Source: a virus
DNA: 64,000 bases
Direction: 5' to 3' (one strand)
Virus record (IMG/VR): IMGVR_UViG_3300035181_002522
Span: 64,001-128,000 of that record
A program made the translations under genes and the position numbers. The notes under the pieces are model-generated. The model did no database searches. It worked only from the letters and a program-made list of their open reading frames with translations, and had not been told where the DNA came from. Positions 54,365 through 54,913 of the stretch are shown here, piece by piece; position 1 is the stretch's first letter; the number at the start of each line of letters is the position of its first letter.

Positions 54365-54436
54365 AAAGTAAAAACCGCTGTTAATGGGTTATCATGATTA
54401 GATATAAACCCCATAAACCTTTTTTGTTTTTACTTT
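54365..54436 (+). ncRNA. minimal free-standing copy of the conserved module (Y-RNA-like stem)
   Basis: AAAGTAAAAAC/GTTTTTACTTT, CGCT vs pyrimidine internal loop, GTTAATGGG/CCCATAAAC, TTATC. Confidence 0.75.
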
Positions 54437-54448
54437 AACAAGTTTTGA

Positions 54449-54513
54449 AGAACCATTCAATCTTGGTTATCCGATATAAAATCAGACTAATTCCAAGATT
54501 ATCATTTTGTTTT
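54449..54513 (+). ncRNA. second minimal free-standing copy of the module
   Basis: AGAAC/GTTTT, CATTC loop, AATCTTGG/CCAAGATT, TTATC. Confidence 0.7.
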
Positions 54514-54526
54514 ACAATTATTTCCT

Positions 54527-54739
54527 ATGGGGAATATTAAGATGACATTTAAAATTTTAGTAACAGATGTTATTTCTTCTGACGGTGGCAATGGTTCTGC
54601 AATTTCACAAGTCGTTATTGACTTTGAACGATTGGTTGATGCTCAAGCTGCTTATGATAAGCTTAAAGATAGCACATATCAGTTAGACGCTCCAGGTCAT
54701 AATATGACAATGGGTCGAACGGTTACAAAATTGTTTTAA
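54527..54739 (+). CDS. hypothetical protein
   Basis: ORF. Confidence 0.5.
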   Translation: MGNIKMTFKILVTDVISSDGGNGSAISQVVIDFERLVDAQAAYDKLKDSTYQLDAPGHNMTMGRTVTKLF

Positions 54740-54806
54740 GATTAAGTCATAATGCCATAAAGCTAGCTAAATTTAGCCAGCTTATATCGGTTTTATGCAC
54801 AGGTTT

Positions 54807-54913
54807 GACAAACTGCTTGAAGTTGATTATCTTTTATGGAAAAAGAGTCGTGGGTTCAACTCCCACCTTGAATCCATAATGGAACTTTAACTCAACTTTG
54901 TTTTTTGTTTGTC
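54807..54913 (+). ncRNA. free-standing module plus T arm (YrlA-like order)
   Basis: GACAAAC/GTTTGTC, GAAGTTGA/TCAACTTT, TTATC, small hairpin, GTGGG-TTCAACT-CCCAC. Confidence 0.8.

What the first reader, a model, noticed from the sequence alone, without database searches (positions are those of the whole stretch)
54365..54913. Three free-standing RNAs carry the same module in the circularly permuted order
Seen at 54365-54436, 54449-54513 and 54807-54913: outer stem ending AC, a short CGCT/CATTC/TGCTT strand, an inner stem, invariant TTATC, variable cargo, the inner-stem partner, a pyrimidine tract, then GT and the outer stem. This is the insert of the 44.5-47.0 kb tRNAs opened at its GNRA loop. 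Stems differ in sequence but all pair. Cargo ranges from a short loop to a hairpin plus true T arm, and the first copy starts right after a TATAAT promoter. This shows the module is an autonomous unit (6 copies, 2 permutations) and matches YrlA Y-RNA topology. No Ro60 gene is in the window. Inference: a family of sponges or adaptors for one RNA-binding protein.
Basis: partly seen in the sequence, partly recalled or inferred. Interest (0 to 1): 0.85.

Follow-up and report, generated by a model that had tools for sequence, protein, structure and literature searches.

The report
Three extra phage Y RNAs
Three small hairpin RNA genes in the tRNA region of a large uncultured phage have the docking architecture of Y RNAs, the partner RNAs of the Ro60 protein; the phage encodes Ro60 about 58 kb away, so they are probably extra Ro60 partners lying far outside the neighbourhood where such RNAs are normally sought.

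Summary
At 54364-54436, 54447-54515 and 54807-54913 (+) three elements share one layout: outer stem ending AC, a 5-6 nt strand, a 7-8 bp inner stem, invariant TTATC, variable cargo, the inner-stem partner, a U-rich strand, then GT and the outer-stem partner.

This is the Y-RNA core: lower stem with a bulged pyrimidine, asymmetric internal loop, upper stem, and UUAUC at the 5' end of the loop.

A covariance model trained only on 39 modules beside Ro60 genes of other phages ranks the three copies 1st, 2nd and 4th in the window (32.7, 16.5 and 13.7 bits). The phage's own Ro60-adjacent RNA scores 13.2 bits.

A full-length Ro60 gene lies 3.3 kb before the window start.

Two other large phages carry like modules among their tRNA genes. 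One has the same A-rich variant, wedged 1-5 nt from flanking tRNAs.

The copies lack the canonical GNCGAA/CGAA motif and fail the YrlA and sbRNA Rfam thresholds.

Verdict: new members, of an A-rich subtype, of a known kind. Earlier notes of this scan report the same class on other DNA (e1-5656175 and others).

The parts
54364..54436 (+). Copy 1: short Y-RNA-type hairpin. 12-bp outer stem, ACCG/UUGU site (C-G pair, bulged C, G.U), inner stem, TTATC at 54389-54393, 16-nt cargo.
   Evidence: Model R3, trained on other phages only: 54369-54432, 32.7 bits, E 1e-4, top hit of the window. R2: 27 bits. Weak hit to the sbRNA family RF01656: 20.2 bits against a gathering score of 38.
54447..54515 (+). 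Copy 2: short Y-RNA-type hairpin, 10 nt after copy 1. Site ACCA/UUGU (G9 replaced by A), TTATC at 54467-54471, 21-nt cargo.
   Evidence: R3: 13.7 bits, E about 1, rank 4 of the window, full-length match. Weakest of the three.
54807..54913 (+). Copy 3: Y-RNA-type stem pair with 60-nt cargo. TTATC at 54827-54831, T arm at 54850-54866, then a 3-bp mini-hairpin. Site ACUG/UUGU (bulged U).
   Evidence: (z -4.58). R3: 16.5 bits, E 0.25, rank 2, full-length match. The T arm matches the tRNA-like models of Rfam only weakly.
54353..54358 (+). TATAAT hexamer 5 nt before copy 1. Possible -10 element, unverified.
   Evidence: Not listed by the promoter scan. The hexamer is not enriched in the window.
54527..54739 (+). 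Small ORF (70 aa, unknown function) between copies 2 and 3. Copies 1-2 would lie in its 5' leader if co-transcribed.
   Evidence: only faint PHROG matches.
44580..44625 (+). Same module in permuted order, closed by a GTAA loop, inside a tRNA-shaped gene.
44713..44761 (+). Same module in permuted order (GAAA loop) inside a tRNA-shaped gene. Keeps the canonical GCCGA.
46879..46925 (+). Same module in permuted order (GCAA loop) inside a tRNA-shaped gene.

Best explanation
The three elements are small non-coding RNA genes of the Y-RNA kind.

Architecture (shown): each folds into a lower stem made by its two ends, an asymmetric internal loop (5-6 nt on the 5' side, 8-9 nt and U-rich on the 3' side), an upper stem, and UUAUC at the 5' edge of a variable loop. 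At the junction of lower stem and internal loop sits a C-G pair, then a bulged pyrimidine, then a G.U or A-U pair.

Family membership (shown): they match the modules that stand beside Ro60 genes in other phages.

Binding (inferred): after transcription with the surrounding small-gene and tRNA region and trimming, they are bound by the phage's own Ro60. Binding is probably weaker than for the canonical GCCGA handle next to the Ro60 gene.

Function (inferred): they present different loops. Copies 1 and 2 are plain hairpins of the YrlB/Yrn2/Yrl2 type. Copy 3 carries a T-arm-tipped helix, a reduced YrlA-type tRNA mimic. By analogy with Deinococcus RYPER and Thermus phage phiLo, they would gate Ro60 or tether it to host factors such as PNPase or tRNA-binding proteins.
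For: 1. Anatomy read directly from the sequence and by folding.
2. Independent model test. R3 was built only from 39 Ro60-linked modules of 13 other phage contigs. Scanning both strands of the window with filters off, it places copies 1, 3 and 2 at ranks 1, 2 and 4. All are full-length matches with the expected ends, and the 6x9 internal loop aligns with at most one indel. By my hand estimate, two of the next three hits falling within 600 nt of the top hit on the same strand has a chance of about 3e-4.
3. Positive control. The RNA next to the phage's own Ro60 gene scores 13.2 bits with R3, the same range as copies 2 and 3.
4. Family structure. The two-helix structure covaries: 91% of cells paired against 64% in shuffles, and 13 of 14 pairs have double changes.
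5. tRNA-cluster modules. The 13 modules of three phages, including these copies, give 95% paired against 64%, with 13 of 14 pairs doubly changed.
6. A full-length Ro60 is in the same genome. It matches D. radiodurans Rsr at E 8e-100 and Xenopus Ro60 at E 2e-98.
7. Recurrence. A 350-kb Ro60 phage (G005) has 5-6 modules among 22 tRNA genes, 45 kb from its Ro60, and none detected within 3 kb of it. Phage G008/G009 has four modules of the same A-rich type (..AAAC CG.. / ..UUUU GUUU..), 1-2 nt after one tRNA gene and 5 nt before the next.
8. Literature. UUAUC at the 5' end of the loop is conserved in sbRNAs and vertebrate Y RNAs (PMC4726728, PMC4450293). YrlA has a conserved YUAY/UA kink after the same stem (PMC4201824; 10.1101/312249). 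Single changes in CGAA weaken phiLo Ro60 binding only 3- to 4.4-fold (PMC12135203).
Against: - The 5'-strand motif taken as the Ro60 contact is degenerate. The 39 Ro60-linked modules have G4 and G5 in 37 of 39 and G6, C8 and G9 in 39 of 39. All three copies have A at position 6, and copies 1 and 3 also at 4 and 5. Copy 2 loses G9 and copy 3 loses C8. None has the AA of CGAA.
- Copies 2 and 3 have E-values of 0.25 to 1 on their own.
- No Rfam family reaches its threshold.
- The copies lie about 58 kb from Ro60, whereas published Y RNAs were sought within 4 kb.
- No orthologous locus could be fetched, so covariation comes from paralogues and analogues, not orthologues.
- There are no expression data.
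- The phage with the closest module type shows no TROVE gene in its recovered 197 kb, though that contig is only about 55% complete.
Confidence: 0.6

Rival explanations
1. Decayed paralogues. The three are eroded copies of Y-RNA modules, or of tRNA/Y chimeras, that have lost Ro60 binding. They are neutral relics or merely stable hairpins in leaders and trailers.
For: Positions that are invariant or nearly so in 39 Ro60-linked modules (G4-G6, C8, G9) are changed in the copies. Copy 3's T arm differs at only two loop positions from that of the tRNA-borne modules, and it has no D or acceptor arm, as a deletion product would.
Against: Both stems, the 6x9 loop geometry and UUAUC are intact in all three despite different stem sequences. 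The same A-rich form recurs in four compensated copies in another phage, placed precisely between tRNA genes, which argues for selection on this variant.
Confidence: 0.15
2. Same fold, different partner. The A-rich AAAC-CG subtype is a separate class that works with a host protein (host Rsr, PNPase, Hfq-like or a tRNA enzyme), or as a decoy for tRNA-targeting nucleases, rather than with the phage Ro60.
For: The G008/G009 modules of this subtype occur in a 197-kb contig without a TROVE gene. The modules lie in tRNA arrays rather than beside Ro60. The 3' strand is an AUUUUUUG/UUUUUUG tract. PNPase binds phiLo Yrl RNAs without Ro60 (PMC12135203).
Against: G008 is only about 55% complete, so Ro60 may be in the missing half. 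In this genome the subtype grades into the canonical GCCGA form (tRNA insert 2 and the Ro60-adjacent RNA). Ro60 phage G005 also keeps its modules in the tRNA cluster.
Confidence: 0.15
3. Chance or generic hairpins. These are AT-rich intergenic stem-loops, terminators, or promoter/stem-loop cassettes of T4-type phages that happen to share TTATC.
For: The genome is AT-rich. A loose descriptor gives 11 hits against 6.5 in random genomes. Copy 2 folds no better than many shuffles (z -1.4).
Against: The strict descriptor gives 3 against 0.12. A model that never saw this genome ranks the copies 1, 2 and 4. No terminator-like site lies on the + strand. The sequences are not repeated elsewhere in the genome.
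Confidence: 0.05

Closest known systems
Yrl1 and Yrl2 of Thermus phage phiLo, bound by the phage Ro60 (PMC12135203)
   Same: Phage-encoded small RNAs with a stem, internal loop and stem. They serve a phage-encoded Ro60. The short hairpin format is like copies 1 and 2.
   Different: The phiLo RNAs lie directly upstream of the Ro60 gene and carry CGAA. The copies here lie about 58 kb away in the tRNA region and have CGCU, CAUU and UGCU. Binding is shown for phiLo and untested here.
YrlA (Rfam RF02553; Chen et al. 2014, PMC4201824; structure preprint 10.1101/312249)
   Same: The ends pair into the Ro60-binding stem. The next stem corresponds to a tRNA anticodon stem and is followed by the conserved YUAY, here UUAU(C). 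Copy 3 then has a T arm, as YrlA does.
   Different: No Rfam match. The GNCGAAN0-1G motif is absent. Copies 1 and 2 have no tRNA-like domain. Copy 3 has a T arm and a 3-bp hairpin but no D arm or acceptor-like stem.
YrlB of Salmonella and M. smegmatis, Yrn2 of D. radiodurans (PMC4201824)
   Same: These are second, shorter Y RNAs that fold as one long hairpin. Yrn2 is made in a precursor together with a tRNA and Yrn1. That parallels modules embedded in tRNA arrays.
   Different: Those lie next to rsr, and their loop is described as small and pyrimidine-rich. The loops of copies 1 and 2 are A/U-rich and can pair UUAUC with GAUA(A).
Metazoan Y RNAs and nematode stem-bulge RNAs (Rfam RF01656; PMC4726728, PMC4450293)
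   Same: Lower stem with a single bulged pyrimidine, extra nucleotides on the opposite strand, an upper stem, and UUAUC at the 5' end of the loop. Two Ro60-linked modules of related phages reach the RF01656 gathering score (38.5 and 38.1 against 38).
   Different: Copy 1 reaches only 20.2 bits. The lower-stem sequence GGUCCGA/UUGAC is replaced by AAACCG/UUUGUUU. The origin is phage, not nuclear Pol III genes.

Membership tests
Y RNA (Ro60 partner RNA, general definition) | The 5' and 3' ends pair into a long stem that encloses the rest of the RNA. | tested here: met
   Outer stems of 12, 7-9 and 7 bp close each element.
Y RNA (Ro60 partner RNA, general definition) | Ro60 site: helix with a single bulged C, extra nucleotides on the opposite strand, and a conserved 5' strand (GGUCCGA, GNCGAA or CGAA). 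| tested here: inconclusive
   The geometry is kept: C-G pair, bulged C (U in copy 3), then G.U (A-U in copy 2), with the 3' strand 2-3 nt longer. The sequence motif is not kept: positions 4-6 read A in copies 1 and 3 (copy 2 keeps G4), CGAA reads CGCU, CAUU and UGCU.
Y RNA (Ro60 partner RNA, general definition) | A Ro60/TROVE protein is encoded by the same genome, classically within about 4 kb. | tested here: inconclusive
   A full-length Ro60 is in the same contig, but about 58 kb away. A second Ro60 phage also keeps its modules 45 kb away in its tRNA cluster.
Y RNA (Ro60 partner RNA, general definition) | The RNA is bound and stabilised by Ro60. | not testable with these tools
   Needs a gel shift or an immunoprecipitation.
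   Copy 1: 32.7 bits, E 1e-4. Copies 3 and 2: 16.5 and 13.7 bits, ranks 2 and 4, individually marginal but equal to the genome's own Ro60-adjacent control at 13.2 bits.
YrlA (RF02553) | Reaches the Rfam gathering score (69 bits). | tested here: not met
   No YrlA match in 54.3-54.9 kb, even at E up to 10.
YrlA (RF02553) | GNCGAAN0-1G near the 5' end (PMC4201824). | tested here: not met
   The corresponding stretches are AACCGCUG, AACCAUUC and AACUGCUU.
YrlA (RF02553) | tRNA-like domain with T arm, closed acceptor-like stem and D arm. YUAY begins the variable region. | tested here: not met
   YUAY is present in all three as UUAU. Only copy 3 has a T arm, and none has a D arm.
Nematode sbRNA (RF01656) | Reaches the Rfam gathering score (38 bits). 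| tested here: not met
   Copy 1 reaches 20.2 bits. Two modules of related phages do pass.
Intrinsic terminator or PeSL-type repeat cassette | GC-rich hairpin plus U run, or a sequence repeated through the genome with a promoter. | tested here: not met
   No + strand terminator-like site. No second copy of the sequences in the genome by blastn.

The most novel reading that the evidence does not exclude
The A-rich AAAC-CG...UUAUC...UUUUGUUU modules are a distinct class of Y-like RNAs made as parts of phage tRNA operons. Their ends would be cut by the tRNA-processing enzymes, and they would act without, or beyond, a phage Ro60. For example, they could capture host PNPase or Rsr, or act as decoys for tRNA-directed defence nucleases. 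The design shared with animal Y RNAs (bulged lower stem plus UUAUC) would then reflect an ancient, mobile RNA module spread by phages.
Probability: 0.15. Interest if true: 0.75.

Novelty: new member of a known kind. Interest (0 to 1): 0.55.

Why it matters
Published surveys looked for bacterial and phage Y RNAs within about 4 kb of the Ro60 gene and report one to a few per genome. Here one phage carries at least seven modules in two topologies, three of them about 58 kb from Ro60 among its tRNA genes. Two other large phages show the same habit.

If these RNAs bind Ro60, phage Ro60 particles come in many flavours and are tied to tRNA metabolism. Genome-wide model searches, rather than neighbourhood searches, would then be needed to count Y RNAs.

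The graded series from GCCGA to ACCGC, ACCAU and ACUGC in a single genome also offers a natural affinity series for testing what Ro60 really reads. It would also show what the conserved UUAUC does outside animal DNA replication.

Tried and rejected
- Rfam at gathering and at loose thresholds: no ribozyme or known sRNA family matched, only sub-threshold tRNA-like and sbRNA hits.
- Synteny. The neighbouring proteins (70, 206 and 214 aa) have no relatives in IMG/VR by the search for related loci and only remote ones in GenBank phages. blastn of the locus against phages found nothing. The metagenome contigs I could fetch (L027-L029) have neither tRNAs nor modules.
- Model R1, built from the three copies themselves, is over-fitted. 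It finds only its training set and was not used as evidence.
- The MAFFT alignment of the copies was out of register until they were trimmed to a common start.
- Promoter claim: TATAAT, TGTATAAT and TATAAATA are not enriched.
- RtcB: none in the contig, which is 46% complete.
- A Sm/Hfq-site reading of the AUUUUUUG strand was considered but not tested.
- The weak R3 hit at 49586-49679 (-) lacks the linker strand and lies inside an ORF. I treated it as chance.

Full report
**Setting.** The window is G000:C1:64001-128000 of a 164-kb, AT-rich IMG/VR phage contig. All tRNA genes and most ORFs in 43-64 kb lie on the + strand. The finding covers non-coding gaps among small ORFs of unknown function, between tRNA genes at 50.8-51.8 kb and 55.2-56.2 kb.

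**Observation.** Reading the sequence confirms three elements with one layout:
- a 7-bp or longer outer stem whose 5' strand ends AC and whose 3' strand starts GT;
- a 5-nt 5' strand (CGCTG, CATTC, TGCTT);
- an 8-bp inner stem;
- TTATC;
- cargo of 16, 21 and 60 nt;
- the inner partner;
- a 7-8 nt U-rich strand.

The minimum-free-energy folds reproduce both stems (z -2.75, -1.42, -4.58). A descriptor derived from the copies, and therefore post hoc, finds exactly these three in the genome. In 300 Markov genomes it found 0.12 on average and never three. A looser descriptor is not specific: 11 hits against 6.5. The three tRNA-shaped genes at 44.5-47.0 kb hold the same parts in rotated order, closed by GNRA loops. 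The -10 hexamer before copy 1 exists, but it has no -35 partner and no statistical weight.

**What the module is.** A TROVE/Ro60 gene lies at genome 59069-60661 (-), 3.3 kb before the window. It aligns end to end with D. radiodurans Rsr and Xenopus Ro60. Upstream of it is an RNA with the same order of parts: outer stem, UUGCCGAU, inner stem GAAAUUGG/CCGAUUUC, UUAUC, about 250 nt of cargo, ACUACUUGCU, outer stem.

I collected 14 further Ro60 loci from IMG/VR. Nearly all carry one to more than ten tandem modules just upstream of Ro60. Their form is NGGG(C/U) CG(A/G)(A/C)G.., an inner stem ending GG, UUAUC, cargo, the inner partner..CUU(G/A)(C/U)CCN.

A model built on 14 short ones (R2) recovered 39 modules, and these gave model R3. 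On those 39 modules the two helices covary strongly. Paired cells are 91% against 64% in shuffles and 31-54% in slid controls, and 13 of 14 pairs have changes on both sides.

**Literature features.**
- The vertebrate Ro60 site is a helix with a single bulged C and extra nucleotides on the opposite strand (PMC4726728).
- Bacterial YrlA has GNCGAAN0-1G and a conserved YUAY after the stem that mimics the anticodon stem (PMC4201824). The UA of that motif makes a kink (10.1101/312249).
- UUAUC at the 5' end of the loop is conserved in nematode sbRNAs and vertebrate Y RNAs.

The phage modules have all of these features. Two of them even pass the Rfam threshold of the sbRNA family RF01656.

**Independent test of the three copies.** R3 contains no sequence of this genome. 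With filters off on both strands of the window it gives:

| Element | Coordinates | Bits | E-value | Rank |
|---|---|---|---|---|
| Copy 1 | 54369-54432 | 32.7 | 1e-4 | 1 |
| Copy 3 | 54807-54913 | 16.5 | 0.25 | 2 |
| Copy 2 | 54447-54515 | 13.7 | about 1 | 4 |

Each is a full-length match with the expected boundaries, and the internal loop aligns with at most one indel. Rank 3 is a match inside an ORF on the other strand that lacks the linker strand.

The genome's own Ro60-adjacent RNA, a positive control, scores 13.2 bits. Nothing else in the remaining 100 kb scores higher. Copy 1 is therefore a firm family member. Copies 2 and 3 are marginal alone but convincing in context.

**Recurrence in tRNA clusters.**
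- In G005, a 350-kb phage, the Ro60 locus has no detectable module within 3 kb. A 22-tRNA cluster 45 kb away holds five or six modules, two of them with T arms.
- A pattern scan for copy-1-like modules found phage G008/G009. It has four modules of the same A-rich type: GUGAAAC CGAAAG.., GUGAAAC CGCUUU.., AUCAAAC CGCUUG.., GAAGAAC CGAAAU.., each with ..UUUU GUUUNNN at the 3' end. Three of them sit 1-2 nt after one tRNA gene and/or 5 nt before the next. That placement implies co-transcription and end formation by tRNA-processing enzymes (inference).
- The 13 tRNA-cluster modules of the three phages pair in 95% of cells against 64% in shuffles, with 13 of 14 pairs doubly changed. This alignment is fitted to the model, which favours the structure.

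**Where the copies depart from the family.** Among the 39 Ro60-linked modules G6, C8 and G9 are invariant and G4 and G5 nearly so. The copies read AAACCG, GAACCA and AAACUG there and lack the AA of CGAA.

Within this genome there is a series:
- GCCGA in the Ro60-adjacent RNA and tRNA insert 2;
- ACCGC in inserts 1 and 3 and copy 1;
- ACCAU in copy 2;
- ACUGC in copy 3.

For Thermus phage phiLo Ro60, each single change in CGAA costs only 3- to 4.4-fold in affinity, and much of the contact is with the backbone (PMC12135203). Weaker but real binding is therefore plausible. This is an inference, not a test.

**Mechanism proposed.**
- Shown: the fold, family membership by model, the presence of Ro60 in the genome, and recurrence among tRNA genes.
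- Inferred: transcription with the tRNA region; binding by phage Ro60; copies 1 and 2 acting as short gate-type Y RNAs; copy 3 acting as a reduced tRNA-mimic tether; and action on host PNPase or tRNA-binding proteins by analogy with RYPER and phiLo.
- In the short members UUAUC can pair with a GAUA(A) in the loop. In long-cargo members it cannot, so its conservation is not explained by that pairing.

**Limits.**
- No orthologue of the locus could be obtained.
- The contig is 46% complete.
- The E-values of my models are rough by design.

**Novelty.** In the papers I could search, phage Y RNAs are described only beside Ro60 genes, in mycobacteriophages and phiLo. Jumbo-phage TROVE proteins are mentioned without their RNAs. 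Y-type modules scattered in phage tRNA clusters did not turn up in those papers. Earlier notes of this scan report the class on other DNA. I file the three as new members of a known kind, of an A-rich subtype.

Noticed in passing
window 49586-49679 (-): Weak R3 match (14.7 bits) with both stems and GGUUAUC but no CCG linker strand. It lies antisense inside the ORF 49433-49741. Probably chance.
   Followed up: no
window 54100-54363 (+): The stretch before copy 1 folds strongly (-64.6 kcal/mol). It includes a perfect GC-rich hairpin (CTCCCTCTG TGG CAGAGGGAG, about 54155-54175) that overlaps the start of a doubtful 58-aa ORF. It may be another structured RNA.
   Followed up: no
window 54760-54786 (+): Hairpin AGCTAGCTAA ATT TAGCCAGCT lies about 20 nt after the stop of the 70-aa ORF and about 20 nt before copy 3. 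It has no U run. Possibly a processing or pause site.
   Followed up: no
L014 680-2975 (IMGVR_UViG_3300020020_000028): At least 13 tandem Y-type modules lie in 2.3 kb upstream of one phage Ro60 gene. Some are fused to tRNA bodies (RF00005 hits at 1257-1317 and 1727-1813).
   Followed up: partly
L025 2813-2876 and L013 2699-2772: Two phage modules directly upstream of Ro60 pass the Rfam gathering score of the nematode stem-bulge RNA family RF01656 (38.5 and 38.1 against 38). None passes YrlA.
   Followed up: partly
L038 10253-10584 (G008) and L036 9984-10315 (G009): The phage with the A-rich modules also encodes a permuted-type tmRNA about 4 kb from its tRNA cluster.
   Followed up: no
L023 2513-2775 (IMGVR_UViG_3300034159_000051): Three tandem elements upstream of this Ro60 have a variant handle (GAGCCCC.. 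and GGGUUACC or GGUUCUC). They score only 8-11 bits with R3, so it is a divergent subfamily that the model nearly misses.
   Followed up: no
genome 59069-60661 (-), outside the window: The phage Ro60 is about as similar to Xenopus Ro60 (E 2e-98) as to Deinococcus Rsr (E 8e-100).
   Followed up: no
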